Below are positions 8,514 through 51,675 of a stretch of DNA of 64,000 nucleotides, piece after piece. Both the position numbers and the translations under genes were made by a program. This DNA is from Thermoguttaceae bacterium. Its GTDB lineage: Bacteria > Planctomycetota > Planctomycetia > Pirellulales > Thermoguttaceae. Positions within the stretch are counted from its first letter, which is position 1. Every line of letters begins with the position of its first letter. The stretch lies in assembly GCA_039698075.1 (NCBI GenBank), contig JBDKTJ010000003.1:3101-67100 (forward strand), read 5' to 3'. The notes under the pieces were generated by a model that was not told where the DNA came from, did not search any database, and saw nothing but the letters and a program-made list of their open reading frames with translations.

Positions 8514-8602
8514 GTAAAGGTTTTCGAAGACGACATTGAGGATCGGACCGCCAACGCACGGTCGGCACGCCGGGGGAGTTTGAACCTCACAGGACGGGTC
8601 AG

Positions 8603-10216
8603 ATGGACTTTTTGAATCGGGCTTACTCGCAACTGCACGATCTGTTTCGCTCGATGACGCCGGGCTCGCGCTGGGCGGCGGCTCTTTCGGCCGTCGTCGC
8701 ATTGTCAAGCCTCGGCTATCTGCTGACCCATCAGACCGTCACGCCCGACGCCGACCTGATGCACGGCGTGCCCGTGGCCGCCAGCCAGTTGCCCAAAATG
8801 GAAGCCGCGCTGGCCAAAGCCAATTTAACGAATTACCGAATCGACGGCGCGTCGATCCGCGTGCCGCGAGGCCAAGAGCCGGTCTACATGGGCGCGTTGG
8901 TCGACGCGAAGGCTTTGCCGCCGAACATCGGCGAGGCCCTGATCGCGGCCGTCAGCAACGGCAACGCCTTCGAGAGCCGCGACGCCCGCGACGAACGCCT
9001 CAAAATCGCCCGGCAAACGGAAATGTCGCTGGTGATTCGCTCGATGCCGGGCATTGAAAACGCTTTCGTGTTGTATGACGTCGACATGAAAACCGGCTTC
9101 CAGCGTGAAAAACTCATCACGGCCACGGTCAGCGTCAAACCGGTCGGCGACACGCAGCTCGACGAGGCCCGCATTTCGTCGATCCGTTATTTCATCGCCG
9201 GGGCGATCGCCGGACTGAAACCCGAAAACGTCACGGTCTCGGACCTCAACGGACGCACCTGGCACGGAATCGCCGAGGACGCCGGCAGCGCCGATGAAAA
9301 TCTCTACATCTCGCTCAAACGGACATACGAGCAGGACCTGAAGGCCAAAATTCTCAACGCCTTGTGCTTCATTCCGAAAGTGACCGTCGAACCCACCGTG
9401 GTGCTCGATCGGGAACGGTTGACTCACTTCCGCCAAGAAAAACGCACGCCCAACGACGAGCCTCGCCCGGCCGGTTCGACGCGGTCGCCGCGTTGCAGCG
9501 TGTTGCCCAACACGGCCGCGATTCTCGACAGTCTGCTGAGCGGCTCCACAGGCGACGCCCCTCCGACGCCCGCGGCGTCCGGCTCGCATGAACAGATCGA
9601 ACGCGAAAGCGTCGGCCTGACGCCGATCCAGGCCCGCGTGTCCGTCGGCGTGCCGGTCAGCTATTTCAAGAAGATCTGGCAAGAGCAACACGCGGTCGAG
9701 CCGGGCCATTCGGTCGGATCGCCCGATTTGGCCGCGTTGGATCGGATTCGCGCGGAGGAATCGGAGAAAATCCGACGGCATGTGGCCCAATTGCTTCCGT
9801 CGCCGGAAAGCCCGGCCAAGGCCGCCGAGTTGGTCACCGTCACGACGTTTCAAGACATTTCGACGCCGGTCGAAAAAGTCGCGCACGATTACGTTCAAGA
9901 CGTTTTGGCGTGGCTCCAACAATCGTGGCGGACGTTGAGCGTTTTGGGGCTGGCTCTGATCGGACTGCTCGTGTTGCGGTCGATCGTTCGCCAACTGCCG
10001 AGGCCCTCGATTCCGGAGCCGACGGCGTCCGAGTCCATCGCGATGCCGGAAGGATTTATGCGGGACGACGCCACGACCAACGCGGCGCCGTCGCCCCACG
10101 CCAAACGATTCCGCGAGCCCGCCCCGGCGTATCACGATGAAATTTCCGAACTGGTCGACCGCGATCCCGACGCGGCCGCCAACGTGTTGCGACATTGGAT
10201 CGGGCAGGTGGACTAG
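8603..10216 (+). CDS. fliF: Flagellar M-ring protein FliF
   Basis: 537-aa ORF with an N-terminal TM segment, a YscJ/FliF-like periplasmic region and a second TM near the C-terminus. It is followed 3 nt later by fliG. Confidence 0.9.
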   Translation: MDFLNRAYSQLHDLFRSMTPGSRWAAALSAVVALSSLGYLLTHQTVTPDADLMHGVPVAASQLPKMEAALAKANLTNYRIDGASIRVPRGQEPVYMGALVDAKALPPNIGEALIAAVSNGNAFESRDARDERLKIARQTEMSLVIRSMPGIENAFVLYDVDMKTGFQREKLITATVSVKPVGDTQLDEARISSIRYFIAGAIAGLKPENVTVSDLNGRTWHGIAEDAGSADENLYISLKRTYEQDLKAKILNALCFIPKVTVEPTVVLDRERLTHFRQEKRTPNDEPRPAGSTRSPRCSVLPNTAAILDSLLSGSTGDAPPTPAASGSHEQIERESVGLTPIQARVSVGVPVSYFKKIWQEQHAVEPGHSVGSPDLAALDRIRAEESEKIRRHVAQLLPSPESPAKAAELVTVTTFQDISTPVEKVAHDYVQDVLAWLQQSWRTLSVLGLALIGLLVLRSIVRQLPRPSIPEPTASESIAMPEGFMRDDATTNAAPSPHAKRFREPAPAYHDEISELVDRDPDAAANVLRHWIGQVD

Positions 10217-10219
10217 GCT

Positions 10220-11227
10220 ATGGCGAACGATCGGCAAGCGACAGGCATCCGGAAAGCGGCCCTTTTCGTGGCCGGTTTGGACCAGACGGTCGCCGATCGG
10301 CTGCTGGAGCAAATGGGCCCCGAGCGGGCCAGGCAGGTGCGCGAGGCGATGCGGACCATCGACGCGATCGACCTGCAAGAACAGCAGCGTGTGATCGACG
10401 AGTTCCAACGCATCGAACCGATGATTCCGCCGCAATCGCCGGCCGGCATCGAATTGGACAAGCTGTCGATCGATCAGGCCCGGCACGATTTCGCGGCCGA
10501 ATTGGACGCGCCGGCCTCGTCGGGAACGACCGTCCAAGACGCAACGCCGCCCGCGCCGTTCGAGTTCCTGCGCGACGCCGACGATCCGCGATTGGCCGAG
10601 CTGTTGTCCACCGAGCGTCCGCAAACAATCGCCCTGGTGCTTTCGCACTTGCCGCCCGAGCGGGCCGGCGCCACGTTGGCCCATTTCGACCCGTCGCTGC
10701 AAGTCGAGGTGGTCCGTCGCCTGGTCGATCTCGAAAACACCGATCCCGAAACGCTGCGTCAGATCGAACGAACGTTGGAGGAGCGGCTTGCACGCCAGAT
10801 CGTCGCCTCGCGGCGTGAACGTGCGAACGGTCCGCAAACCGTCGCTCGCATTTTGGCGGCCTGCGGCGGCGCAACGGCCGGCGAAATCGTGGACCATCTA
10901 GCCCAATTCGATCCGTCGCTGGCCGAAATGCTCGGCTATCAGCCGTTGGAGTTCGACGATCTGGCCCAACTGGACGACGCCCTGCTGACGGCGACCTTTC
11001 AAGCCACCGATCCCGACGTGGCGATGGCGGCCCTGTTGGGCGCGACGCCGACGTTGGTCGAGCGAGTGCTCGGCGGGCTCGCGCCGGAGCAGGCCAAACA
11101 GTGGCGTCGCCGGCTCGAACGTCCCGAGCCCATCCGACTGAGCGATATCGACGCCGCGCGACGGCAAGTGGCCGCCACGGCCCGACATTTGTCGTTCAGC
11201 GTCTCACACGACGCGAGGGCCGCGTAG
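10220..11227 (+). CDS. fliG: Flagellar motor switch protein FliG
   Basis: 335 aa. N-terminus GIRKAALFVAGLDQTVADRLLEQMGPERARQV is typical of FliG, and the position follows fliF. Confidence 0.9.
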   Translation: MANDRQATGIRKAALFVAGLDQTVADRLLEQMGPERARQVREAMRTIDAIDLQEQQRVIDEFQRIEPMIPPQSPAGIELDKLSIDQARHDFAAELDAPASSGTTVQDATPPAPFEFLRDADDPRLAELLSTERPQTIALVLSHLPPERAGATLAHFDPSLQVEVVRRLVDLENTDPETLRQIERTLEERLARQIVASRRERANGPQTVARILAACGGATAGEIVDHLAQFDPSLAEMLGYQPLEFDDLAQLDDALLTATFQATDPDVAMAALLGATPTLVERVLGGLAPEQAKQWRRRLERPEPIRLSDIDAARRQVAATARHLSFSVSHDARAA

Positions 11228-11312
11228 TTGTTTTTCAGGCAAATCATGTCGCCGGTGCGTTGTTGTACGGTTTACGTCCTTTTCGGTTTTTTGCGGTTTC
11301 CTTGAGGCGGTC

Positions 11313-11957
11313 ATGGGCACGATTCTTCGACTCGACCATTCGCCGCACGGCTTGCACGGTGCGGACATGAACTTCGACGACCTGGTCGCCGAGGCCGATC
11401 GGCATGCGTCCGCACGGAAACTCGAGGCCGAGCGTCTGGTCGCCGAAGCCCGACAAGAGGCCGAGGCCATCCGTCAGCAAGCCGCCGAGGAAGGCGCGCT
11501 GGCGGCGGCCCAGGCGGTCGAACGCATGGTGGCCGAGCAGTTGGCCCCGTCGATCGAAGCGTTGCGACGCGCGGCCGACAATCTCCACACGGCCAAGCAA
11601 TCGTGGCTTGCCCATTGGGAGTCGAGCGCCGTCCGATTGGCTTCGGCGATGGCCGCCCGAATCCTCCGCGGCGAGTTGCGTCGTCAGCCGGAGGTGACGC
11701 TCCGACTGGTCCGTGAGGCGTTGGAGCTGGCCGCCGGCAGCGCGAACGTTCGTCTGCGTCTGCATCCCGACGACCTCAAGGCCTTGGGCTCGCAGGTGCA
11801 AGCGATGATCGACTCGATGTCGTCGCTCGGCGCCGCCGAACTGACGCCCGACCCGTCCATCACCCGAGGCGGCTGCCGCGTCGACACCCGCTTCGGCACG
11901 ATCGACCAACAATTCGAGTCCCAGTTGCAACGCATGGAAGAAGAGTTGACCGGCTAA
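11313..11957 (+). CDS. fliH: Flagellar assembly protein FliH
   Basis: 214 aa with a coiled-coil Ala/Glu-rich N-half and a C-terminal ...GGCRVDTRFGTIDQQFESQL. It lies between fliG and fliI. Confidence 0.8.
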   Translation: MGTILRLDHSPHGLHGADMNFDDLVAEADRHASARKLEAERLVAEARQEAEAIRQQAAEEGALAAAQAVERMVAEQLAPSIEALRRAADNLHTAKQSWLAHWESSAVRLASAMAARILRGELRRQPEVTLRLVREALELAAGSANVRLRLHPDDLKALGSQVQAMIDSMSSLGAAELTPDPSITRGGCRVDTRFGTIDQQFESQLQRMEEELTG

Positions 11958-11981
11958 CCCCTAGCCTCTAGCCCCTAGCCC
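11958..11981 (+). repeat. C-rich heptad repeat CCCCTAGCCTCTAGCCCCTAGCCC filling the fliH-fliI junction
   Basis: Read directly from the sequence. It runs from just after the fliH TAA to the fliI ATG and belongs to the CTAGCCC/CTAATCC motif family. Confidence 0.8.
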
Positions 11982-13307
11982 ATGTCCGACCTTACCGAAC
12001 AACTCGACCAGATCATGCCGACGTCGCTCATGGGCAGCGTTGCGCGGACGATCGGCACGACGATTTCCGCGTCGGATTTTCCGGCGCCGATCGGGGCCGT
12101 GGCGGAAATCCAACGGCAGTCGGGCGATCCGTTGACGGCCGAGGTCGTCGGTTTTCGCGACGATTTGACCGTGCTGTATCCGTTGAGCCGATTCGACGGC
12201 GTGCGGCGAGGCAACCGCGTTCGTCTGGTCCGCACTGCGAGGTGGTTGCGCGTGGGTGACGAGTTGCTGGGCCGGGTGATCGACGCCGAGGGCCGCCCGA
12301 TCGACGGTCGTCCGTTGCCGGCGCTCGACCAGCGCGTCTCGCTGCAACAATCGCCGCCCGATCCGTGCGCCCGACCGCGCATCGACGAGCCGCTTTCGAC
12401 CGGCGTCCGCGCGATCGACGGTCTGTTGACGTGCGGCAAAGGTCAGCGGATGGGCATTTTTTCCGGCTCCGGCGTCGGCAAGAGCACGCTGCTGGGCATG
12501 ATGGCCCGCTACAGCTCGGCCGACGTGATCGTCATTGCGTTGATCGGCGAGCGCGGCCGAGAAGTCAATCAGTTCATCGAGCGCGATCTCGGGCCCGAGG
12601 GCTTGGCCAAGAGCGTGGTCGTCGTGGCCACGAGCGATCAGCCGGCGCTCACGCGAACCCAAGCGGCGCAGACCGCCACGGCCGTGGCCGAGCATTTTCG
12701 CGATCGCGGCAAGGATGTGTTGTTGTTGATGGATTCGCTGACGCGGTTTGCGTTGGCCCAACGCGAGATCGGACTGGCGGCCGGCGAGCCGCCGACGACG
12801 CGCGGATTTACGCCCTCGGTGTTCGCCGCGTTGCCGAGACTGGTCGAACGGACCGGTCGAAGCGCGTCGGGCAGCATCACCGCATTTTATTCCGTGCTGG
12901 TCGAAGCGGACGATCCGAACGAGCCGATCAGCGACGCCGTTCGCGGATTGTTGGACGGCCACACCTGGCTTTCGCGTCATCTGGCGTCGCGCGGCCATTA
13001 TCCGGCCATCGACGTGCTGGAAAGCATCAGCCGTTTGACGCCGGACGTGGTCGACTCGGAACAGTTGCAGGCGATTCACGCGATTCGCGCCATGCTCGGG
13101 GCGCACCGCGATCATCAGGATTTGATTTCGATCGGCGCGTATCGCCGCGGCAGCAACCGGACCGTCGACGCCGCGATCGAGTTGCAGGAGGCGTTGAACG
13201 AGTACCTGCGTCAACCGATCGGGCGGCCCGCCTCGCTGGCCGAGGCCCGGCGCGAATTGCTCGAACTTTTCGATCGATACCAAACGTTGCTCGAACCGTC
13301 CGAATAA
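11982..13307 (+). CDS. fliI: Flagellum-specific ATPase FliI
   Basis: 441 aa with Walker A GSGVGKSTLLGMM, Walker B VLLLMDSLTR and the F1/T3SS ATPase fold pattern. Confidence 0.95.
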   Translation: MSDLTEQLDQIMPTSLMGSVARTIGTTISASDFPAPIGAVAEIQRQSGDPLTAEVVGFRDDLTVLYPLSRFDGVRRGNRVRLVRTARWLRVGDELLGRVIDAEGRPIDGRPLPALDQRVSLQQSPPDPCARPRIDEPLSTGVRAIDGLLTCGKGQRMGIFSGSGVGKSTLLGMMARYSSADVIVIALIGERGREVNQFIERDLGPEGLAKSVVVVATSDQPALTRTQAAQTATAVAEHFRDRGKDVLLLMDSLTRFALAQREIGLAAGEPPTTRGFTPSVFAALPRLVERTGRSASGSITAFYSVLVEADDPNEPISDAVRGLLDGHTWLSRHLASRGHYPAIDVLESISRLTPDVVDSEQLQAIHAIRAMLGAHRDHQDLISIGAYRRGSNRTVDAAIELQEALNEYLRQPIGRPASLAEARRELLELFDRYQTLLEPSE

Positions 13308-13310
13308 ACG

Positions 13311-13787
13311 ATGCTCAAGTTTCAATTTCGACTGGCCACGCTGCAAAAACTCCGCGAGATTGCCCGCGACGAGCGACGCACGCAATTGGCCGAGTCGCAA
13401 CGGGCCGACGCCGCATTGGAGCACGAGCAGGCGGAAGTCGACGCCGAACGGGGTCGGTTGCAGGGCGAATGCCGCGCGATCGGCGGGCCAGGCCGCTTGG
13501 ATCTTCCGCGATTGGCCGAGGTCCAGCGTTACGCCGAATCGCTGCGACGCGACGCCGAATCGCTCGAACGCCAACGGCGGTCGCTGGCCGTCGAAATCGA
13601 GCGGCGGCGGCTTGCCACGATCGAAGCCGACCGGGACGTCCGATCGCTTGAAAAACTGCGTGAGCATCAATGGGCGGCCCATCGCCAGATCGAAGAGCGT
13701 CAAACCGTCAAGCGGCTCGACGAGTCCGCCGCGAGGGCCGTCGCAGTCGCCCGGTCGTCGCAGGACGACGACGAAACCCCTCATTGA
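13311..13787 (+). CDS. fliJ: Flagellar export chaperone-like protein FliJ
   Basis: 158-aa coiled-coil protein (MLKFQFRLATLQKLREIARDE...) starting 3 nt after fliI. Confidence 0.75.
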   Translation: MLKFQFRLATLQKLREIARDERRTQLAESQRADAALEHEQAEVDAERGRLQGECRAIGGPGRLDLPRLAEVQRYAESLRRDAESLERQRRSLAVEIERRRLATIEADRDVRSLEKLREHQWAAHRQIEERQTVKRLDESAARAVAVARSSQDDDETPH

Positions 13788-13880
13788 TCTCTAGGTAGCC
13801 CATGAACCGTTCCATACACATTAGCCTAGGCATCAATAAACAAGCGTTTTATCGGTCCCGCGCGTGAGGAGCATTTTTTT

Positions 13881-14234
13881 ATGGCCCACGAACCCATCCC
13901 CGAACGAACGTCGAGCGACGCCGGACCGGCGTGCGGCGCGACGCCTTGTCGTTGGGAGCGATTCGATGGCGAGCCGGCGATCCGCCCGGCCGATGCGGTC
14001 GAGTCGGACGACCCGACGCCGATTTCCGTACGGATCGAGTTCGGACGCGCCCGACCGCGACGCGACGAGGTGCAAAAATTGCGCGTCGGGGACATCGTGC
14101 CGCTGGACAACCACGCCACGGATCTGGTCGGGGTATACGCCAACGGGCGGCTGGTGGCCCGGGGCGAGCCGCTGGTCGTCGACGGACGGATCGGCGTCCG
14201 CGTGGTCGAGTTGATCTCCCCGGTCGAACCCTGA
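13881..14234 (+). CDS. fliN: Flagellar motor switch protein FliN (SpoA domain)
   Basis: 117 aa. The C-terminal ...LRVGDIVPLDNHATDLVGVYANGRLVARGEPLVVDGRIGVRVVELI matches the FliN/SpoA pattern. Confidence 0.85.
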   Translation: MAHEPIPERTSSDAGPACGATPCRWERFDGEPAIRPADAVESDDPTPISVRIEFGRARPRRDEVQKLRVGDIVPLDNHATDLVGVYANGRLVARGEPLVVDGRIGVRVVELISPVEP

Positions 14235-14254
14235 ACGAAAAAAGGAATCAGGCC

Positions 14255-14764
14255 ATGCGACGTTGGATGATGGTGGTCGGACTGGTGATGGTTGCGGTTG
14301 GCGCGGCTCGATGGTCGGCGGCGGACGCCGCGCCGTTGTCGTCCGACGCGCAGCCCGCGACACTGCAATCGTCGGACGCCATGCCGTTGAAACCGCACGA
14401 CGCCGCACGCGACGAACCGGCCAAACGGCCGAACTTTTTTTCACCGGTCACGATCGGCGGCAGCTTGGCGCTGGTCCTTGGGATTTTTTTGGCGTTGGTT
14501 TGGTTGATCCGCCGCGCGGCGCCGGGCCGAATCGGTCCGTTGCCGACCGAGGTGTTCGAGACGCTCGGACGGGCGCCGCTGGCCAATCGCCAACAGGCGC
14601 AGTTGATTCGGTGCGGTCCCAAGCTGCTGCTGGCGGCCATTTCGATGACCGACGCCCGGCCGCTGCTTGAAATTGATGATCCCGAAGAGGTCGAGCGTCT
14701 GACGATGCTGTGTCGCTCGGGCCGATTGCAGACCCCGCTGCGTCGAACGGAGAACCGCCGATGA
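14255..14764 (+). CDS. fliO: Flagellar biosynthesis protein FliO
   Basis: ATG 14255 ([11 protein letters not shown]...), a single [17 protein letters not shown], and a C-terminal ...[22 protein letters not shown]. Its stop overlaps the fliP start as ATGA. Confidence 0.7.
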
Positions 14765-15564
14765 TGGGCCGTTGGATGCCAATGCTCTGTTTGTTCGGGT
14801 GCCTGCTGTTCGTCGCGGTTGCGCGGGCGGATGAGTCGAACGCCGCGCCGGCCAATCAACCGCTGTCGGTCGGACTGCCCGACGGATTGGCCGCCGGTCC
14901 GAAAGGTTGGACCAGTCCCGAGGGGCTCGGTTCGACGTTGCAGATGATGCTGTTGCTGACCGTGTTGAGTCTGGCGCCGGCGGCGTTGCTGATGACCACC
15001 TGTTTTGTCCGCATCGTGGTGGTGCTGAGCCTGCTGCGGCAAGCGCTCGGAACGCAGAATCTTCCGCCGACGCAGGTGATCACCACGCTGGCGTTGTTCT
15101 TGACGCTGCTGATTATGAGTCCGGCGTGGAAACAAGTGTACGATAGCGCAGTCGTTCCGTACACGCAGCATCGGATCGACGCCCAACAGGCGTGGACGAC
15201 CGGCGTCGCGCCGATCCGTCGCTTCATGAGCGCGCAGATTGAAAACACGAAGAACACCGAGGACGTGTGGCTGTTTTTGAACTACCTGCCGCATCGCGCC
15301 GCGCCGGCCAGCTACGACGATGTGCCGCTGCAAGCCCTGCTGCCGGCGTTTATGCTGAGCGAACTGAAGACGGCCTTTTTGATCGGGTTTACGATTTTTC
15401 TTCCGTTTTTGATTCTCGACATGGTCGTGGCCAGCGTCATGGTGTCGATGAGCATGTTGATGGTTCCACCGGCGTTGGTGTCGCTGCCATTGAAGTTGCT
15501 GTTGTTCGTTCTGGTCGACGGCTGGCGTCTGGTCGTCGGAATGCTTTTGCAGAGTTTCCAGTAA
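14761..15564 (+). CDS. fliP: Flagellar export apparatus protein FliP
   Basis: Signal-like N-terminus and conserved [32 protein letters not shown]... and [27 protein letters not shown]. Start chosen at ATG 14761. Confidence 0.9.
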
Positions 15565-15566
15565 AT

Positions 15567-15663
15567 GAGGGATTGGGGATTAGATACAACCGCGGAAAAC
15601 CAAACGTGGTGCGATGTGATTGAAACTACCCCGACCCCCGCGTCCCCTAATCCCTAATCCCTC
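15567..15663 (+). repeat. Inverted repeat (17-bp stem, 63-nt loop) in the fliP-fliQ spacer, built from the CTAATCC heptad motif
   Basis: GAGGGATTGGGGATTAG (15567-15583) pairs with CTAATCCCTAATCCCTC (15647-15663). They are complementary except for one G.U position. The 3' arm ends 9 nt before the fliQ ATG. Confidence 0.85.
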
Positions 15664-15672
15664 CCGCCTCCC

Positions 15673-15939
15673 ATGGACCAACAAACCGCCGTTGAACTGG
15701 GCCGCCAAGCGTTTTGGACGATGCTGTTGATCGGTTCGCCGGTGTTGGCCGCGGGCCTGATCGTTGGGCTGGTGATTGGACTGTTGCAGGCGCTCACGCA
15801 AATCCAAGAGCAAACCGTGGCCTTCGTTCCGAAAATCATCGTCATGTTGCTGGTTCTCAGCGCGACGCTGCCGTGGCTGATCGCGCAAATGGTTCAATAC
15901 ACCCACGACCTGATCGCCGGTATTCCGGGTCGGTGGTGA
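15673..15939 (+). CDS. fliQ: Flagellar export apparatus protein FliQ
   Basis: 88-aa two-TM protein of the FliQ/HrpO family type, positioned between fliP and fliR. Confidence 0.9.
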   Translation: MDQQTAVELGRQAFWTMLLIGSPVLAAGLIVGLVIGLLQALTQIQEQTVAFVPKIIVMLLVLSATLPWLIAQMVQYTHDLIAGIPGRW

Positions 15940-16002
15940 GCTGTCGCCAACGGCCATGCGTGGTGTTGCCGTTTTTTGTCACGTTCGGTTCTCCGCGATT
16001 TT

Positions 16003-16791
16003 ATGATGACGCACGCTGCCGGTCTTATCTTGCTGTCGCTCGTGTTCGCCCGGGTCGGCGGATTGACGATGACCGCGCCGATTTTCGGCGGGGCGGCCGT
16101 GCCGATGCAAGTTCGCGTGCTGCTGGCCGTCGCGTTGACCGCGCTGGTCGCGCCGCTGCAATGGAATGCGGCTTTCGTCTCGCCCGGCGGCCCGGCGGAT
16201 TACGCCGTCCTGCTGGGCAGCGAGGCCGTGGTCGGCGTTTGCCTCGGGCTCGGCGTTCTGATCCTCGTCCACGGCATGACGCTGGCCGGTCAGTTGATCG
16301 GCGCCGCCAGCGGACTGACCGTGGCCGACGTGTTCGACCCGTCGTTGGACGAGAACGTGCCGCTGTTTTCTCGACTGTTCTTTCTGCTGGCCGTCGCGAT
16401 TTTTTTCTGCGTCGGCGGACATCGGATGGTCATGGCGGGCCTTTTGGACACGTTTCGGACGATCCCGCCCGGCGGCGCGACGTTTTCCCGGTCGATCGTC
16501 GATGGATTCGTGACCTTGGCAGGCCAGAGTTTCGCCTTGGCCGTGCGGGCCTCCGCGCCGGTCGTGACGGCGTTGTTGCTAGCGACCTTGACGCTGGGGC
16601 TCGTCGGACGTACCCTGCCGCAGTTGAATGTGTTGAGCCTCGGGTTCGGCGTGAACGCCCTGCTGGCCTTCGCAGCGCTGAGCATCACGTTGGGAACGGC
16701 GGCCGTGGCGTGGGCTGATCAAATCGAACCGGCATTGGATACGCTTTTGGAATGTCTTCAGACACCGATTTCCAAAGAATGGCTTTTTTAG
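16003..16791 (+). CDS. fliR: Flagellar export apparatus protein FliR
   Basis: Polytopic membrane protein (LILLSLVFARVGGLTMTAPIFGG...). Start chosen at ATGATG 16003. The track ORF starts at 15976. Confidence 0.85.
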   Translation: MMTHAAGLILLSLVFARVGGLTMTAPIFGGAAVPMQVRVLLAVALTALVAPLQWNAAFVSPGGPADYAVLLGSEAVVGVCLGLGVLILVHGMTLAGQLIGAASGLTVADVFDPSLDENVPLFSRLFFLLAVAIFFCVGGHRMVMAGLLDTFRTIPPGGATFSRSIVDGFVTLAGQSFALAVRASAPVVTALLLATLTLGLVGRTLPQLNVLSLGFGVNALLAFAALSITLGTAAVAWADQIEPALDTLLECLQTPISKEWLF

Positions 16792-16823
16792 TCCCATAAA
16801 AATGGATAGCGAAACAGTCTTTT

Positions 16824-16840
16824 CTAATCCCTAATCCCTC
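16824..16840 (+). repeat. CTAATCCCTAATCCCTC motif copy 6 nt upstream of the flhB ATG
   Basis: This 17-mer is identical to 15647-15663. Confidence 0.85.
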
Positions 16841-16846
16841 TTTCCC

Positions 16847-17608
16847 ATGGCCGAGTACGCCGGCGAAAAAACGCTCGACCCGACCCCGCACCGTCGCCAA
16901 CAGGCGCGGCGCGAAGGGCATGTGGCCAAGAGCCAGGAGTTGGGCTCGGCCGCCGTGCTGTTGGCGGGCATTGCGCTGCTGATGGTTTTGGGCGGCGGAT
17001 TGGCGGGCTTTTTGGCCGACTATTGCCGCACCCAACTCGGCGGCGAACCTTGCCTGTCGATCAGCGCCGAGGGCGTGGTGGATCAGTGGAACGCAACGCT
17101 TTGGTCGCTCGGCCGTTGGATGGCGCCGATCCTCGGGCTGCTTTTTTTGACTGGCGTGGCGATCCACGTGCTTCAAGTTGGATTTTTGTTCCTGCCACAA
17201 CGACTCGGATTCGACCCCACCCGGCTCGACCCGATTCGCGGATTGCAGCGGATTTTTTCCGGCGCGAATCTGGTCCGCCTGGGCATGGGGCTTTTGAAAC
17301 TTGCGATTCTCCTGGGCGTGGCGTCGGTGGTGCTTTACGGCCAACGCGAGGAGATTCTGTCGCTCAGCAGCCTAGCGCCGGCGCCGTTGGCTCAACAAGT
17401 GACGCATATCCTGCTGAACACGGCCCTGAAGCTCGGCGCGGCCTTGTTGGTCTTGGCGCTGTTGGATTACGCCTATCAATGGTGGCGGCACGAGCAGGAC
17501 CTCAAGATGACGCCGCAAGAATTGCGTGAGGAACTGCAAAATCTCGAAGGCAATCCGCAAGTTCTCGCCCGGCGAAAACAGATGCAGCGCGAACTGGCGA
17601 AGAAATGA
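16847..17608 (+). CDS. flhB: FlhB, N-terminal transmembrane part plus linker only; the C-terminal NPTH switch domain is absent
   Basis: 253 aa. Starts MAEYAGEKTLDPTPHRRQQARREGHVAKSQEL (FlhB-type), has 4 TM segments, and ends ...MTPQELREELQNLEGNPQVLARRKQMQRELAKK*. A convergent gene ends 7 nt downstream. Confidence 0.85.
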   Translation: MAEYAGEKTLDPTPHRRQQARREGHVAKSQELGSAAVLLAGIALLMVLGGGLAGFLADYCRTQLGGEPCLSISAEGVVDQWNATLWSLGRWMAPILGLLFLTGVAIHVLQVGFLFLPQRLGFDPTRLDPIRGLQRIFSGANLVRLGMGLLKLAILLGVASVVLYGQREEILSLSSLAPAPLAQQVTHILLNTALKLGAALLVLALLDYAYQWWRHEQDLKMTPQELREELQNLEGNPQVLARRKQMQRELAKK

Positions 17609-17615
17609 CCCACGG

Positions 17616-18845
17616 TCACGCTTCGTATCCGTACCGCTCGGCGTATTTTTTCCACCGCCGACCGATCTCGGCTTTCATCTCGGGCGTGATTTCGTAGCGA
17701 TTGGTCCGATAGTTCTTTTGACCGGCGAAATAGGCCTCGACGCCGGGCCGAGCGGCCTCGAAGTCGCCCAGATCCAACTCCTGATACACCCGCCGCATCT
17801 CGCCGAGCGGATCGGCCACGAGTTGCTCGTAACGGACTTCGCAAAACTGGCCCTTGCCCAACAAATCGCGATCCCGATCGAAGGCGTCGTACATCCGAGT
17901 CAGCGTTTGGAACACCTGCTCGTCGAGCCCCTCGCATTTCGGCGCCTGCAATCCCTGATCGCGATAGAGCCGTCGCCAAAGGTTCACGGTCGAGGGGAAA
18001 AGAATCCGCGGGTCACGAACGATGTGAACGAACTTCGCCCGCGGAAACATCTCCAGCAAAACGCGAATCCGCGCGGTGTGCGGCGGCGACTTCAACACGA
18101 TCCGCTTCGGATCGCGCAACGTCAGGCACTTCAGAAACCAAAGGAATTGGCTCTTCCAACGATGCAACGCCGACGCCGACACGCCGCGGAAATCGAGATA
18201 CTCCTGATATTGCGGCGGACGATTTGAAAAAACCGCCGTCAGATACGGCGACGGCAGACCCATGTTGCACAAGGCAAACTCGTCCTCTTGCGGATGACTC
18301 CACCCGGCCGGCATGTTGTCGATCGGCCGCTGCGTCGGCAGAAGCACCTGCAACCACGGCTTCATCCACCAACCGGACACCAAAAAATGGTTCGGCGCGA
18401 AACAATCGTACGTGTCGGGATACGTGTGGCGCGGATCGCGCACCAACAACTCATGCAGCAGCGTGGTGCCGGAGCGCCAGTGTCCGATCACGAAAATCGG
18501 GTCGTAGTCGATCCGCGTCCGCTCGATTTTCCGACGGTAGAAAAAAATCTGGATCAGCCAGAGGAAGGAATTGAAAAAGCTCAGGCCCGCGATAATCAAG
18601 GCCATCGCGATGCGGGACGGCGCCACGGCGAACCGATTGCGCCACAGCAGCGAAAACCAGCCGATCACGCCGATGCCGTCCCAAAAACGCGGGATCCAAA
18701 ACCGATCCTTGTAGCCGCCTTTCTGCGAGGCGTCGGGCTTGTCGGCCTTGCCCTTGCCTTGGACGGAACCTGAAGGCGGAGACAAATGGCCTTTTGACTT
18801 TCTCTCTAAACACTCAGAACTACCCAGATTAACCATTCGATCCAT
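17616..18845 (-). CDS. Membrane-anchored sulfotransferase family protein
   Basis: 409 aa with N-terminal TM helices, then a PAPS-binding-like motif IGHWRSGTTLLHELL and the later KSPPHTARIRVL. Confidence 0.75.
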   Translation of the reverse strand: MDRMVNLGSSECLERKSKGHLSPPSGSVQGKGKADKPDASQKGGYKDRFWIPRFWDGIGVIGWFSLLWRNRFAVAPSRIAMALIIAGLSFFNSFLWLIQIFFYRRKIERTRIDYDPIFVIGHWRSGTTLLHELLVRDPRHTYPDTYDCFAPNHFLVSGWWMKPWLQVLLPTQRPIDNMPAGWSHPQEDEFALCNMGLPSPYLTAVFSNRPPQYQEYLDFRGVSASALHRWKSQFLWFLKCLTLRDPKRIVLKSPPHTARIRVLLEMFPRAKFVHIVRDPRILFPSTVNLWRRLYRDQGLQAPKCEGLDEQVFQTLTRMYDAFDRDRDLLGKGQFCEVRYEQLVADPLGEMRRVYQELDLGDFEAARPGVEAYFAGQKNYRTNRYEITPEMKAEIGRRWKKYAERYGYEA

Positions 18846-18990
18846 CCTTCCAAATCATGATCGCTATCGTACCAAATTCGGCATCGGCATGACAGGCCAC
18901 GGGAATCGAGGTTGTCCAAACCGACCTGGACACTTTACCGGGTTTCATGTACCTTCCCGCTTCTTCTCTGACCCCCCAAGGGAGCAACCG

Positions 18991-21045
18991 ATGGTCGCGA
19001 CGTCCGCGCCGCATTCGGCGACGTCGGGTTTTTGGACCCGAGTCCAGGAATTGATCCTGCCGATCGCCATGATCGCCAGCGTACTGGTGATTATGGCGCC
19101 GCTGCCGGCTGGGTTGATGGACTTGCTGCTTTCGGCCAACATCACCATCGCGGTGATTATGCTCCTGACGACGATTTACGTGCGGACTCCCCTGGAGTTC
19201 AACATTTTTCCGTCGTTGCTTCTGACCACCACGTTGTTCCGACTGGCGTTGAACGTGGCCACGACGCGATTGATTTTGACCCGGGCCAATCAAGACGGAC
19301 TGCTGGCAGCCGGCGGCGTGGTGCGCACCTTCGGCGAGTTCGTCACCGGCGGCGCGGCCGGAACGGACAAAGTGGTCGTCGGGCTGATCATTTTCGCGAT
19401 TATCGTGTTGATCCAATTTGTGGTCATCACGAAAGGCGCCACGCGCATCAGCGAGGTGGCCGCACGGTTCACGCTCGACGGCATGCCAGGCCGGCAGATG
19501 GCCATCGACGCCGACTTGAGCGCGGGCGTCATCAACGAACGTGAGGCCCAGCGACGCCGGCAGGAAGTCACGCAGCAAGCGGATTTCTTCGGCGCGATGG
19601 ACGGCGCCAGCAAGTTCGTCCGAGGCGACGCCATCGCGGGATTGGCCATCATTCTGATCAACATCGTCGGCGGTTTGACGCTCGGGCTGGTCCGCTACGA
19701 TATGCGTTTGGACCAGGCCGCGTCGCTGTTCACCACGTTGACGATCGGCGACGGACTGGTCACGCAGGTGCCGGCGCTGCTGATTTCTCTGGCGGCGGGC
19801 CTGTTGGTCACGCGAAGCAGTCAGGAGAGCAATTTGCCGAGGGAGTTTTTGCGGCAATTGTTTTCGCGTCCGATGGCGTTGGCCGTCGCCGGCGGTTTTT
19901 TGGCCATTCTGACGCTGACGAGCCTGCCGCGCGTTCCGCTTTTGTTGTTGGGCGCCGCCTGTGCGGGCATGGCGATTGCGCTTTCGCGGCGCGAGACTCG
20001 GGCGCAAGCGGTCGCGGCGGTCAAAAAACAGGCCGAAGTGGCCAAAACCGCCGAGCGCGTGGAAGACTATTTGACCGTCGATCCGATGGAACTCGAATTG
20101 GGCCTGGGCCTGATCCGATTGGCCGATCGCAAGCGCGGCGGCGATCTGTTGGACCGCGTGCAACGAATCCGTCAGACGCTCGCCTCGCAAATCGGCATCC
20201 TTCTGCCGAAAGTTCGCATCCGCGACAACTTGCGACTCGAGCCGACCCAGTACCGCATCAAAATCGCCGACATGGCCGTGGCCCAGGGCACGATCGACGC
20301 CGCATCCGGCGAGTCGACGCTCACGATCGCCACGCACCTGAGCGAAACGGTCCGCCAACACGCCGATGAGCTGCTCACACGCGACGCCGTCAAACACCTG
20401 CTCGACGAATTGCGGCAAACCTCGCCGGCCGTGGTCGACGAGTTGATTCCCGGCGTGATGCGGCTTGGCGAGGTCCAGCAAGTGCTGCAATGTCTGCTGC
20501 GCGAGGGCGTGCCGATCCGCCAGCTTGGGCCCATCCTGGAAACGCTGGGCGATTTCGCCTCGAAAACCAAAGATCCCTGGACGCTGACCGAGCATGTTCG
20601 AGCCCGACTGGCCCGGACCCTTTCAACCCGCTACCGCGACGCCGACCATCGGTTGCGCGTCGTCACGCTCGATCCGGCGTTGGAAGAACACCTCCGCGAC
20701 GCCTCGGAGCCAACCGACGAAGGGCCCGCCGTTCGGCTGCCGCCCGCCGAAACGGACGCGATCTGCCAATCCATCGGCGTCGCCATCGAAAAACTCCAGT
20801 CGGCCGGCCAACCGCCGGTCGTGCTGGTCAGTCCGGCGATTCGTCCCGTCGTCCGACAACTGACCGCCGCGCGGCTTCCGCAATTGGTGGTGCTCAGCTA
20901 CGCGGAAATCACGCGCGACACGAAAATCGAGTCGGCCGGCATGGCGTCGGTCGAGATCGGCCGCGTGCCGTCGCCGCATTTTCGCAAAGCGGGACAGGTC
21001 GCCCATCGGTCCCGAAACGACGAACCCCTTCACAATCTATCCTAA
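18991..21045 (+). CDS. flhA: Flagellar export apparatus protein FlhA
   Basis: FHIPEP-type N-terminus (ILPIAMIASVLVIMAPLPAGLMDLLLSANI...), ITKGATRISEVAARFTLDGMPGRQMAIDADL, and a large cytoplasmic C-domain. Start chosen at ATG 18991, preceded by GGGAG. The track ORF starts at 18739. Confidence 0.92.
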   Translation: MVATSAPHSATSGFWTRVQELILPIAMIASVLVIMAPLPAGLMDLLLSANITIAVIMLLTTIYVRTPLEFNIFPSLLLTTTLFRLALNVATTRLILTRANQDGLLAAGGVVRTFGEFVTGGAAGTDKVVVGLIIFAIIVLIQFVVITKGATRISEVAARFTLDGMPGRQMAIDADLSAGVINEREAQRRRQEVTQQADFFGAMDGASKFVRGDAIAGLAIILINIVGGLTLGLVRYDMRLDQAASLFTTLTIGDGLVTQVPALLISLAAGLLVTRSSQESNLPREFLRQLFSRPMALAVAGGFLAILTLTSLPRVPLLLLGAACAGMAIALSRRETRAQAVAAVKKQAEVAKTAERVEDYLTVDPMELELGLGLIRLADRKRGGDLLDRVQRIRQTLASQIGILLPKVRIRDNLRLEPTQYRIKIADMAVAQGTIDAASGESTLTIATHLSETVRQHADELLTRDAVKHLLDELRQTSPAVVDELIPGVMRLGEVQQVLQCLLREGVPIRQLGPILETLGDFASKTKDPWTLTEHVRARLARTLSTRYRDADHRLRVVTLDPALEEHLRDASEPTDEGPAVRLPPAETDAICQSIGVAIEKLQSAGQPPVVLVSPAIRPVVRQLTAARLPQLVVLSYAEITRDTKIESAGMASVEIGRVPSPHFRKAGQVAHRSRNDEPLHNLS

Positions 21046-51518: not shown

Positions 51519-51566
51519 CAGGGGAAGGGTCGCCACAGAGAATGGCCCCTTCCCCTGAGTTTTTTC
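51519..51566 (+). terminator. Second, stronger rho-independent terminator
   Basis: CAGGGGAAGGG (51519-51529) pairs with CCCTTCCCCTG (51547-51557), followed by AGTTTTTTC. Confidence 0.65.
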
Positions 51567-51614
51567 TTGAGCGTCGGGCGGACTCCTGTCGCCCAAGGGA
51601 GACGAAAAATGGTA

Positions 51615-51643
51615 TTGCCCCAACCGCCGCAACCGTACATAAT
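51615..51643 (+). promoter_or_regulatory. Candidate promoter of the metal-efflux operon
   Basis: TTGCCC (51615-51620), 17 nt, CATAAT (51638-51643). It lies 33 nt upstream of the ATG at 51676, which is preceded by AAGGAG. Confidence 0.45.
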
Positions 51644-51675
51644 CAAAGTGGGAATGCTTTGAGTCAAGGAGCGTT

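What the first reader, a model, noticed from the sequence alone, without database searches (positions are those of the whole stretch)
16847..18845. flhB ends before its C-terminal switch domain and a convergent sulfotransferase gene occupies the space before flhA
The flhB ORF is 253 aa and stops just after ...EGNPQVLARRKQMQRELAKK. In full-length FlhB (about 350-380 aa, with Salmonella autocleavage at N269/P270 of NPTH) this segment precedes the C-terminal substrate-specificity switch domain. I found no NPTH-type continuation by eye in the frames downstream, and 7 nt after the stop the oppositely oriented 409-aa sulfotransferase gene ends. Either FlhB-C is encoded elsewhere as a separate polypeptide, a natural split near the autocleavage site, or this export gate lacks the canonical switch. 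The insertion also cuts flhA off from the fliF-flhB transcription unit.
Basis: partly seen in the sequence, partly recalled or inferred. Interest (0 to 1): 0.65.

Follow-up and report, generated by a model that had tools for sequence, protein, structure and literature searches.

The report
Flagellar FlhB naturally missing its switch domain
This planctomycete's flagellar export-gate gene flhB really does lack the whole C-terminal "switch" domain, as do about a hundred relatives, which matters because in Salmonella that domain is needed to export rod and hook proteins and to time the switch to filament export.

Summary
ORF 16847-17608 (253 aa) matches only the first ~245 positions of FlhB models. 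It ends at the equivalent of Salmonella residue ~254, 15 residues before the N269/P270 cleavage site. A complete convergent sulfotransferase gene ends 7 nt later.

It is not an assembly error. Contigs from four independent sequencing runs span the junction without indels.

It is not a private mutation. 99 of the 120 closest homologues are also 253-291 aa. At least two further lineages, and probably more, are truncated at the same place and have different downstream neighbours.

The sulfotransferase is not an insertion. flhB(+)/sulfotransferase(-)/flhA(+) is an old Pirellulales arrangement, seen in 45 of 98 related loci. About 290 bp of flhB were deleted next to it.

Close full-length relatives carry decayed cleavage motifs (NPSQ, NPNQ, DPAG, GPAG) and a faster-evolving C-domain.

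I found no stand-alone C-domain gene in the window, in about 170 related loci, or among the best database hits. Every apparent one was a fragment of a full-length gene.

Most likely this is a recurrent natural loss of FlhB-C, with the protein kept as the FliPQR-FlhB gate subunit. A divergent FlhX-like domain elsewhere in the genome is not excluded, because no whole genome could be scanned.

The parts
8603..14764 (+). Upstream part of the same flagellar export operon. All genes look intact: fliF 8603-10216, fliG 10220-11227, fliH 11313-11957, fliI 11982-13307, fliJ 13311-13787, fliN 13881-14234, fliO about 14260-14764.
   Evidence: ORF list with translations. Pfam hits YscJ_FliF, FliMN_C and FliO. 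The same gene order occurs in relatives L084-L090 and L171. RNA-derived contigs from metatranscriptomes of the same study lie on fliF, fliG and fliH.
14710..16791 (+). fliP (14710-15564), fliQ (15673-15939) and fliR (15976-16791), the FliPQR core of the export gate.
   Evidence: Pfam FliP 2.5e-71, Bac_export_3 3.8e-27, Bac_export_1 1.1e-54.
16847..17608 (+). flhB without its C-terminal domain: 253 aa, comprising the four-helix membrane domain plus about 40 residues of the cytoplasmic linker (equivalent to Salmonella residues 1 to ~254). Missing are the strand before the cleavage site, the NPTH site and the whole cleaved C-terminal domain.
   Evidence: Pfam positions 1-241 of 335, TIGR00328 positions 2-247 of 348. 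Alignment to solved FlhB structures. 99 of the 120 closest homologues have the same short architecture.
17609..17615 (.). 7-nt spacer between the two convergent stop codons. This is the junction left by deletion of about 290 bp of flhB 3' coding sequence.
   Evidence: Sequence. Spanned without indels by contigs of four runs. In the full-length relative L088 the flhB stop and the sulfotransferase stop are 32 nt apart.
17616..18845 (-). Membrane-anchored Sulfotransfer_3-family sulfotransferase (409 aa). It is the ancestral convergent neighbour of flhB, not an insertion.
   Evidence: Pfam PF13469 8.6e-37. A homologue lies convergently downstream of flhB in 45 of 98 related loci, often followed by flhA. 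A WRSGTT motif, resembling a 5'-phosphosulfate-binding loop, is visible in the translation.
18846..18990 (.). Divergent intergenic region between the sulfotransferase and flhA. It must hold flhA's own promoter.
   Evidence: Gene coordinates. The sigma-70 consensus scan found nothing, so the promoter itself is not identified.
18991..21045 (+). flhA (684 aa), intact.
   Evidence: Pfam FHIPEP 1.2e-222, TIGR01398 8.5e-216.
21070..21279 (+). 69-aa remnant of the flhF N-terminus. The GTPase part of flhF, and flhG, are absent.
   Evidence: tblastn: residues 1-62 match the start of the gene that follows flhA in many relatives. Relative L084 has an SRP54-domain FlhF there. No Pfam hit.
21246..22604 (+). 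GT87-family membrane glycosyltransferase (452 aa), occupying the place of flhF/flhG.
   Evidence: Pfam GT87 3.8e-26. No homologue in any related flagellar locus.
22643..23500 (+). fliA (sigma-28-type flagellar sigma factor).
   Evidence: Sigma70_r2, r3 and r4. 81-94% identical to the gene at the same position in relatives. RNA-derived contigs in three metatranscriptomes.

Best explanation
The flhB gene of this uncultured Pirellulales (Thermoguttaceae-like) planctomycete has lost, by deletion, the ~95 codons for the globular cytoplasmic domain FlhB-C. [quoted passage not shown]

What remains is the four-helix membrane domain with its loop, plus the first ~40 residues of the linker. In solved FliPQR-FlhB structures this is the part that wraps around the base of the gate. 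The protein is kept under purifying selection, so it most likely still serves as the fourth subunit of the export gate.

The same loss happened several times in related planctomycetes. It followed a period in which the cleavage motif had already decayed and the C-domain evolved faster. The domain had therefore become dispensable in this group.

Inferred, not shown: the gate works without a covalently attached switch and docking domain. Early (rod and hook) substrates would then be recognised in another way, and the order of export set by something other than the FliK/FlhB-C mechanism, for example FlhA, the ATPase complex, or the FliA-dependent transcription hierarchy.
For: 1. The truncation is real: see the observation check.

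2. It is heritable and widespread. Among the 120 best homologues, lengths are cleanly bimodal: 99 are 253-291 aa and 21 are 346-361 aa, with nothing in between. At DNA level, 14 short forms in JGI metagenome contigs have no C-domain in any frame downstream.

3. Selection is maintained. The short forms share a mean of 70% identity in the N-domain, similar to the long forms (76%). In a 14-sequence alignment of seven short and seven long forms, about 60 columns are invariant. All other flagellar genes in the window are intact. RNA-derived contigs hit fliF, fliG, fliH and fliA.

4. The loss is recurrent.
- Short P0003 is 89% identical to long P0007, closer than P0007 is to any other long form. It sits on an Illumina contig and is followed by a PhdYeFM/PIN toxin-antitoxin pair.
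- A second lineage (L151, L164, P0402-P0404) has only full-length nearest relatives.
- A further short form, P0476, lies on a 4.25-Mb contig. It was not placed in a tree or compared directly with the window's clade, so its status as a separate loss is only a possibility.
- Downstream neighbours differ: sulfotransferase (window, L084), a 223-aa membrane protein (L085, L086), a 215-aa ORF (L001), an SMR transporter (L171), and a toxin-antitoxin pair (L172).

5. Decay preceded loss. Full-length members of the clade have NPNQ, NPSQ, HPSG, GPAG or DPAG where other Pirellulales have NPTE. The ratio of C-domain to N-domain identity falls from 0.78/0.53 in the NPTE outgroup to 0.75/0.76 and 0.61/0.74 inside the clade.

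6. No C-half gene was found.
- None in the window.
- None within +-10 kb of short flhB in L001, L084-L087, L171 and L172.
- No second hit in the 80 genome loci or the 80 metagenome loci.
- A C-domain profile search of 5.8 billion proteins returned only ORFs that begin at internal Met/Val/Leu codons of the normal FlhB linker. Five that I traced to DNA sit in frameshifted full-length genes.
- The best 150 of 1.84 billion cluster representatives were full-length proteins or chimeric fragments.
Against: 1. In Salmonella the cleaved C-terminal domain is the docking site for early substrates. An flhB allele lacking it does not export the hook protein (PMC13344023). A flagellum built with no such domain at all would therefore contradict the best-studied model.

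2. The full-length relatives still keep the pocket residues (the AP of MSAP and the AVAEVL motif), so the domain is still used where it is present.

3. I could not scan any complete genome that carries a short flhB, so a divergent stand-alone domain elsewhere is not excluded.

4. All carriers are metagenome-assembled. Flagellation and motility are unknown.

5. The neighbour-joining tree used to infer several losses is rough and has no support values.
Confidence: 0.55

Rival explanations
1. The switch domain is supplied in trans. The clade carries a separate, divergent FlhX-like gene (a stand-alone homologue of the cleaved FlhB C-terminal domain) elsewhere in the genome. It binds the truncated FlhB non-covalently, as the cleaved domain does in normal FlhB. 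An older paralogue of this kind would also explain why the cis domain first decayed and was then lost repeatedly.
For: [quoted passage not shown] 2006, quoted in the reference list of PMC3040844). FlhX is treated as a regular flagellar component in comparative studies.

In Salmonella, deletion of the cleaved domain is recessive, and the domain is needed for hook-protein export (PMC13344023). A cell would therefore be expected to need it in some form.

My searches covered only the window, +-10 kb flanks, and the top of the database hit lists.
Against: No such ORF was seen in about 2 Mb of Pirellulales DNA around 170 flagellar loci.

None appeared among the best 120 or best 150 hits to a C-domain profile.

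A piece split off at the time of truncation should be ~70% identical to the NP[SN]Q-type domains and should rank at the top of those lists. Only four such ORFs were found. Three begin at internal start codons or inside the last membrane helix, and one was traced to a frameshifted full-length gene.

No hit shares a contig with a short flhB, including the contigs of 4.25, 1.77, 1.13 and 1.12 Mb.
Confidence: 0.3
2. The flagellar system of this lineage is decaying or has been put to another use. The truncated flhB would be one step of reductive evolution, and no functional flagellum is built.
For: In the same window, flhF is reduced to a 69-aa remnant, and flhG is missing, replaced by a GT87 glycosyltransferase gene. 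A close relative also lacks flhF and flhG (L088). No culture or motility data exist.
Against: Thirteen other flagellar genes in the window are full length with strong family matches.

The short flhB is conserved at ~70% identity across about 100 sequences, with no frameshifts in the Illumina assemblies.

The whole fliF-flhB operon is kept in every relative examined.

RNA-derived contigs match fliF, fliG, fliH and fliA.
Confidence: 0.1
3. Sequencing or assembly artefact: a frameshift or mis-join at 17600-17620 hides a full-length flhB.
For: Many apparent FlhB fragments in public long-read metagenome assemblies are exactly such artefacts (L002, L003, L029, L037).
Against: Four independent runs give the same junction without indels. 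The space downstream is filled by the complete sulfotransferase gene on the other strand. No C-domain signal exists in any frame. Relative L084 has the same arrangement.
Confidence: 0.02

Closest known systems
Canonical FlhB / SctU (Salmonella FlhB, 383 aa; Pfam PF01312, TIGR00328)
   Same: Same operon position after fliPQR. Same four-helix membrane domain, conserved N-terminus (TPHRRQQAR) and linker (KMTPQELREE...GNPQ..ARRKQ). Aligns residue for residue with solved FlhB up to residue ~253.
   Different: [quoted passage not shown] Scores 184 bits against the TIGR00328 cut-off of 349.
Laboratory alleles flhB(stop at codon 258) and flhB deltaCCD (delta 270-383) of Salmonella (Chevance et al., mBio 2026, PMC13344023)
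   Same: Almost the same protein end: natural stop at the equivalent of ~254, against a selected stop at 258. Both leave the membrane domain plus the linker.
   Different: The Salmonella alleles are selected mutants. They cannot export the hook protein and, together with loss of Flk, are locked in late-substrate mode. Here the truncation is the wild-type state of a large clade with an otherwise intact flagellar operon.
Helicobacter pylori FlhB with FlhX (HP1575), and stand-alone FlhB-C-like proteins in general
   Same: Shows that a cell can live with FlhB lacking its cleaved C-terminal domain if a stand-alone homologue is present.
   Different: No stand-alone homologue has been found here. In H. 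pylori the chromosomal flhB is full length, and the deletion was made in the laboratory.
Full-length FlhB of sister planctomycetes (P0007, P0020, P0023 and others; L088, L090)
   Same: 67-75% identical in the N-domain. Same operon, and in L088 the same convergent sulfotransferase, followed by flhA.
   Different: They keep a ~95-aa C-domain but with non-canonical motifs (NPNQ or NPSQ; more distant ones have DPAG, GPAG or HPSG, without the Asn needed for cleavage).

Membership tests
FlhB/SctU export-gate protein (Pfam PF01312, TIGR00328) | N-terminal domain of four membrane helices with the conserved loop that wraps the FliPQR base | tested here: met
   PF01312 positions 1-241, E 2.7e-65. Aligned to FlhB of the solved FliPQR-FlhB complexes 6s3l and 8z5s over residues 2-253.
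FlhB/SctU export-gate protein (Pfam PF01312, TIGR00328) | Cytoplasmic C-terminal domain with the NPTH autocleavage site | tested here: not met
   The protein ends at the equivalent of residue ~254. Profile positions 242-335 are unmatched. No such coding sequence in any frame of the window.
FlhB/SctU export-gate protein (Pfam PF01312, TIGR00328) | Score above the curated whole-protein cut-off of the equivalog model | tested here: not met
   TIGR00328: 183.8 bits against a cut-off of 349.25. The Pfam gathering score (24.4) is passed with 221 bits.
FlhB/SctU export-gate protein (Pfam PF01312, TIGR00328) | Encoded with fliP, fliQ and fliR in a flagellar export operon | tested here: met
   fliF-G-H-I-J-N-O-P-Q-R-flhB on one strand. 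The same order occurs in relatives.
Split FlhB (N-half plus a separately encoded C-half) or FlhX-type stand-alone C-domain | A stand-alone ORF of about 90-130 aa homologous to FlhB-C in the same genome | tested here: inconclusive
   Absent from the 64-kb window, from +-10 kb of seven other short-flhB loci, and from the top database hits. No complete genome could be scanned.
Split FlhB (N-half plus a separately encoded C-half) or FlhX-type stand-alone C-domain | Break at or next to the N|P autocleavage site | tested here: not met
   The stop lies 15 residues upstream of the N269 equivalent and also removes the preceding strand.
Sulfotransfer_3 (PF13469) sulfotransferases | Profile match above the gathering score, plus a 5'-phosphosulfate-binding loop | tested here: met
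   127.9 bits against a cut-off of 27. The motif GHWRSGTTLLH is visible in the translation. The substrate is unknown.

The most novel reading that the evidence does not exclude
A large group of planctomycetes builds flagella with an export gate that has no FlhB C-terminal domain at all. That would mean no autocleavage, no FliK-triggered ejection of an inhibitory domain, and no FlhB pocket for docking rod and hook proteins. Early-substrate recognition and the early-to-late switch would then be achieved by a different, still unknown mechanism.
Probability: 0.4. Interest if true: 0.85.

Novelty: new variant of a known kind. Interest (0 to 1): 0.62.

Why it matters
FlhB-C and its autocleavage are treated as a universal, essential part of every type III export apparatus. 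It is held to be the docking site for early substrates and the target of the hook-length ruler FliK.

A 2026 Salmonella study (PMC13344023) proposes that the cleaved domain is an inhibitory lock that must be physically removed to switch to filament export, and that without it hook protein is not exported. The planctomycete clade found here is a natural experiment on exactly that allele. It pairs a wild-type FlhB ending within four residues of the laboratory stop mutant with otherwise intact flagellar operons. Sister lineages show the intermediate steps: a decayed cleavage motif and a faster-evolving domain.

Either outcome is informative. If these cells are flagellated and have no C-domain anywhere, ordered type III export can work without the canonical switch. 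If a stand-alone domain exists, nature has repeatedly chosen a 'pre-cleaved' two-gene design.

The finding also corrects annotation practice. These genes fall below NCBIfam's FlhB equivalog (TIGR00328) cut-off and could be mistaken for pseudogenes or assembly errors.

Tried and rejected
1. Looking for the C-domain in the window. tblastn with seven C-domains and a six-frame HMM search gave only chance-level hits. The best tblastn hit, at 51530-51664(-) with E 0.003, was not supported by the HMM.

2. 'Stand-alone' FlhB-C proteins from the protein search. These looked promising (92-177 aa, many of 107-113 aa) but were rejected. Their N-termini are the normal FlhB linker cut at internal Met/Val/Leu codons. 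Five were traced to DNA. P0122, P0234 and P0215 (L002, L003, L037) lie in frameshifted full-length genes of long-read assemblies. P0135 and the related L045 (L029, L045) are likewise broken full-length genes.

3. The genome-collection scan with a C-domain profile. It therefore could not test the genomes that carry short flhB.

4. The 215-aa and 223-aa ORFs just downstream of short flhB in L001 and L086. I considered them as possible divergent C-domains because of a weak HMM hit (E 0.19). Their translations are unrelated to each other and to FlhB-C.

5. The search of cluster representatives. The short hits were chimeric or frameshift fragments.

6. The promoter and terminator scan of 16700-19100 found no sigma-70-like site and nothing informative.

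7. The primary FlhX paper (PMC1636261) is not held. Only its title could be cited.

8. The metatranscriptomes of the same study are too shallow to say anything about flhB itself.

9. Organism names for most carriers could not be obtained. Only 'Thermogut...' and 'Pirellula...' labels appeared on a few NCBI MAG proteins.
Full report
**1. What is in the sequence**

The window carries one flagellar export operon on the + strand. Its genes are fliF (8603-10216), fliG, fliH, fliI, fliJ, fliN, fliO, fliP (14710-15564), fliQ (15673-15939), fliR (15976-16791) and flhB (16847-17608).

The flhB ORF is 253 aa and ends ...EGNPQVLARRKQMQRELAKK. Seven nucleotides after its stop codon lies the stop codon of a convergent 409-aa gene (17616-18845, minus strand). 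That gene is a Sulfotransfer_3-family enzyme (E 8.6e-37). flhA (18991-21045, 684 aa) follows after a 145-nt divergent intergenic region.

The FlhB protein matches Pfam Bac_export_2 only over positions 1-241 of 335, and TIGR00328 over positions 2-247 of 348. Against solved structures it aligns with residues 2-253 of Vibrio FlhB (6s3l, 8z5s) and 6-253 of the 383-aa FlhB of 36hu. It therefore ends at the equivalent of Salmonella residue ~254, which is 15 residues before the N269/P270 cleavage site.

**2. It is not an artefact**

Logan contigs from four public runs cover the junction without any insertion or deletion. Three runs are wastewater metagenomes from one study. The fourth, from another study, holds a strain about 95% identical.

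No frameshift could restore a longer gene, because the downstream DNA encodes the complete C-terminus of the sulfotransferase on the other strand. Homologues of that enzyme align to residues 407-409 of 409. No frame of the 64-kb window contains FlhB-C-like sequence. The best tblastn hit had E 0.003 on an unrelated stretch, and the best six-frame HMM hit had E 1.9.

**3. It is a property of a clade**

A search of 5.8 billion proteins with the 253-aa protein gave 779 hits at E <= 1e-10. Among the best 120 (61-100% identity), 99 are 253-291 aa and 21 are 346-361 aa, with nothing in between.

All short forms stop 8-45 residues after the conserved ARRKQxQR motif. A large subgroup shares a conserved C-terminal tail, VETQADGLK[KR].

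In 14 JGI metagenome contigs the truncation was checked at DNA level, and no C-domain exists in any frame downstream.

The short forms are as conserved as the long ones (mean N-domain identity 0.70 against 0.76). They sit in the same fliF...fliR-flhB operon. The few named carriers are labelled Thermoguttaceae or Pirellulales.

**4. The sulfotransferase is an old neighbour, not an insertion**

There were 98 related loci with at least 3 kb of sequence downstream of flhB. In 45 of them a homologous sulfotransferase lies convergently within 6 kb, often directly after a full-length flhB and followed by flhA, flhF and fliA. Examples are Thermogutta L013, Bremerella L040, and L047, L049 and L063.

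The close full-length relative L088 (71% identical) has flhB (348 aa), then 32 nt, then the sulfotransferase(-), then flhA. The short-form relative L084 (72% identical) has the same order as the window.

What happened in the window's lineage is therefore a deletion of about 290 bp at the 3' end of flhB, next to an ancestral convergent gene. flhA was already a separate transcription unit before that.

**5. The loss is recurrent and was preceded by decay**

Other Pirellulales carry NPTE at the cleavage site. Inside the clade that contains the window, the full-length proteins carry NPNQ or NPSQ. More basal ones carry HPSG, GPAG or DPAG, which lack the Asn that performs the cleavage.

In the NPTE outgroup the C-domain is much better conserved than the N-domain (0.78 against 0.53). 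Inside the clade that advantage is gone (0.75 against 0.76, and 0.61 against 0.74).

In a rough neighbour-joining tree, short and long forms are interspersed. Three further observations point to separate events:
- Short P0003 is 89% identical to long P0007, closer than P0007 is to any other long form. It lies on an Illumina contig where a PhdYeFM/PIN toxin-antitoxin pair starts 50 nt after its stop.
- A second lineage (L151, L164, P0402-P0404; 256 aa) has only full-length nearest relatives.
- A further short form, P0476 (274 aa), lies on a 4.25-Mb contig. I did not place it in a tree, so whether it marks a separate loss is open.

The genes downstream of the short flhB also differ between lineages: sulfotransferase, a 223-aa membrane protein, a 215-aa ORF, an SMR transporter, or a toxin-antitoxin pair.

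**6. Is the C-domain encoded elsewhere?**

I found no sign of it.
- A profile of planctomycete C-domains returned many ORFs of 92-177 aa. Their N-termini are the ordinary FlhB linker, starting at internal Met, Val or Leu codons. Five that I traced to DNA lie in frameshifted full-length genes of long-read assemblies (L002, L003, L029, L037, L045).
- Only four such ORFs are of the NP[SN]Q type that a piece split off in this clade should have. Three begin at internal start codons or inside the last membrane helix, and one was traced to a frameshifted full-length gene.
All 80 loci kept were full-length flhB.
- The best 150 of 1.84 billion cluster representatives were full-length proteins or chimeric fragments.
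- No second C-domain hit occurs in about 170 loci (about 2 Mb) around planctomycete flhB genes.
- None of the listed C-only ORFs lies on a contig that carries a short flhB.

The limit of all this is that no complete genome with a short flhB could be scanned. A divergent FlhX-like paralogue would rank below the listed hits.

**7. How it most likely works**

In the cryo-EM structures, the FlhB membrane domain and its loop wrap around the cytoplasmic face of FliPQR. The N-terminus and the first part of the linker meet under the gate (PMC7064499). All of this is retained and conserved here, so the short protein is most likely still the fourth gate subunit. This is an inference from homology and conservation.

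The part that is lost has three known roles in Salmonella. It cleaves itself at NPTH. It docks early substrates in a pocket formed by A286, P287, A341 and L344. It is the target of the ruler FliK (PMC7911332; PMC13344023).

The 2026 study found a stop at flhB codon 258 in a selection for late secretion. It showed that flhB lacking residues 270-383, together with loss of Flk, locks the apparatus in late mode, and that this allele does not export FlgE.

The natural planctomycete protein ends four residues earlier than that mutant. Two mechanisms remain:
- (a) The clade has dispensed with the FlhB-C dock and switch, and orders export by other means. I give this 0.55, of which about 0.4 is for a truly functional flagellum with no C-domain at all.
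- (b) A stand-alone domain acts in trans, as FlhX (HP1575) can in H. pylori. I give this 0.3.

Against (a): the full-length relatives keep the pocket residues (AP and AVAEVL), so the domain is still in use where it is present.

Decay of the whole system (0.1) is unlikely, because all the other genes are intact and conserved. Sparse RNA-derived contigs from the same plant also match fliF, fliG, fliH and fliA.

**8. Comparison and novelty**

The gene belongs to the FlhB/SctU family by its N-domain and its operon position. It fails the family's second defining feature, the C-domain with NPTH, and it falls below the TIGR00328 cut-off.

Full-text searches for FlhB together with Planctomycetes, and for truncated or split FlhB, found no description of natural FlhB proteins without the C-domain. 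I therefore rate it a new variant of a known kind.

Its interest lies in the direct link to a current question about how the type III specificity switch works, and in the fact that the decisive test is a simple whole-genome HMM search followed by imaging or heterologous secretion assays.

**9. Other points in the window**

Between flhA and fliA the window has only a 69-aa remnant of flhF (21070-21279). A GT87 glycosyltransferase gene (21246-22604) sits where relatives have flhF and flhG. The full-length-FlhB relative L088 also lacks flhF and flhG. The set of flagellar regulators is therefore in flux in this group, independently of the flhB truncation.

Noticed in passing
window 21070-22604: flhF is reduced to a 69-aa N-terminal remnant (21070-21279). 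A 452-aa GT87-family membrane glycosyltransferase gene (21246-22604) fills the space up to fliA, where relatives have flhF (SRP54 GTPase) and flhG. Relative L088 goes from flhA straight to fliA, while L084 keeps FlhF.
   Followed up: partly
window 17616-18845; L013, L040, L047, L049, L063, L084, L088 and others: A membrane-anchored Sulfotransfer_3 gene is conserved convergently between flhB and flhA in 45 of 98 related Pirellulales loci. This is an unexplained, stable association of a sulfotransferase with the flagellar export cluster. Sulfation of a flagellar or envelope glycan is one possibility.
   Followed up: partly
P0053-P0109 and many others; L093, L095, L098: A large subgroup of short FlhB proteins ends in a conserved tail, P-x-ETQAD[GR]LK[KR] (variants PTQADRL). 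The window's protein lacks it. A conserved new C-terminus suggests a function, such as a binding motif.
   Followed up: no
related loci L004-L170: Planctomycete FlhB rarely has the textbook NPTH. NPTE is the norm, with scattered NPTH, NPTD, NPTQ, NPTK, NPAE, NPSE and DPTE. In the clade of interest the motifs are NPNQ, NPSQ, HPSG, GPAG, DPAG and GPGS. One long form (L142) has no N-P at all (ATSAD).
   Followed up: partly
L001 5691-6911: A group II intron-type reverse transcriptase gene (RVT_1 plus GIIM) sits between fliN and fliO inside the flagellar operon of a relative with short flhB.
   Followed up: no
L172 900-1549: A PhdYeFM-antitoxin/PIN-toxin pair starts 50 nt after the stop of a short flhB that is 89% identical (N-domain) to a full-length relative. 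Insertion of this module may have caused that particular truncation.
   Followed up: partly
P0498 (469 aa): One relative has an ORF in which the C-terminal part of FliR runs on into a short FlhB. This is either a natural FliR-FlhB fusion, as known from clostridia, or a lost stop codon in a long-read assembly.
   Followed up: no
window 18624-18930: In runs X2 and X3 a much more abundant contig (depth 45-55, against ~5 for the window's strain) matches 18624-18766 and 18865-18930 but has 98 different letters in between. This is a related, more abundant organism with a different 5' end of the sulfotransferase gene.
   Followed up: no
window 8600-11853 and 22672-23081: Short contigs from three metatranscriptomes of the same wastewater study match fliF, fliG, fliH and fliA at 96-100% identity. 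Nothing lies on fliI through flhA. Depth is very low, and DNA carry-over cannot be excluded.
   Followed up: partly
L084-L090, L171 (genes just upstream of fliF): A small HATPase_c protein (161-181 aa, of the anti-sigma-factor-kinase type) is conserved immediately upstream of fliF in the relatives. I did not check whether the window has it upstream of 8603.
   Followed up: no
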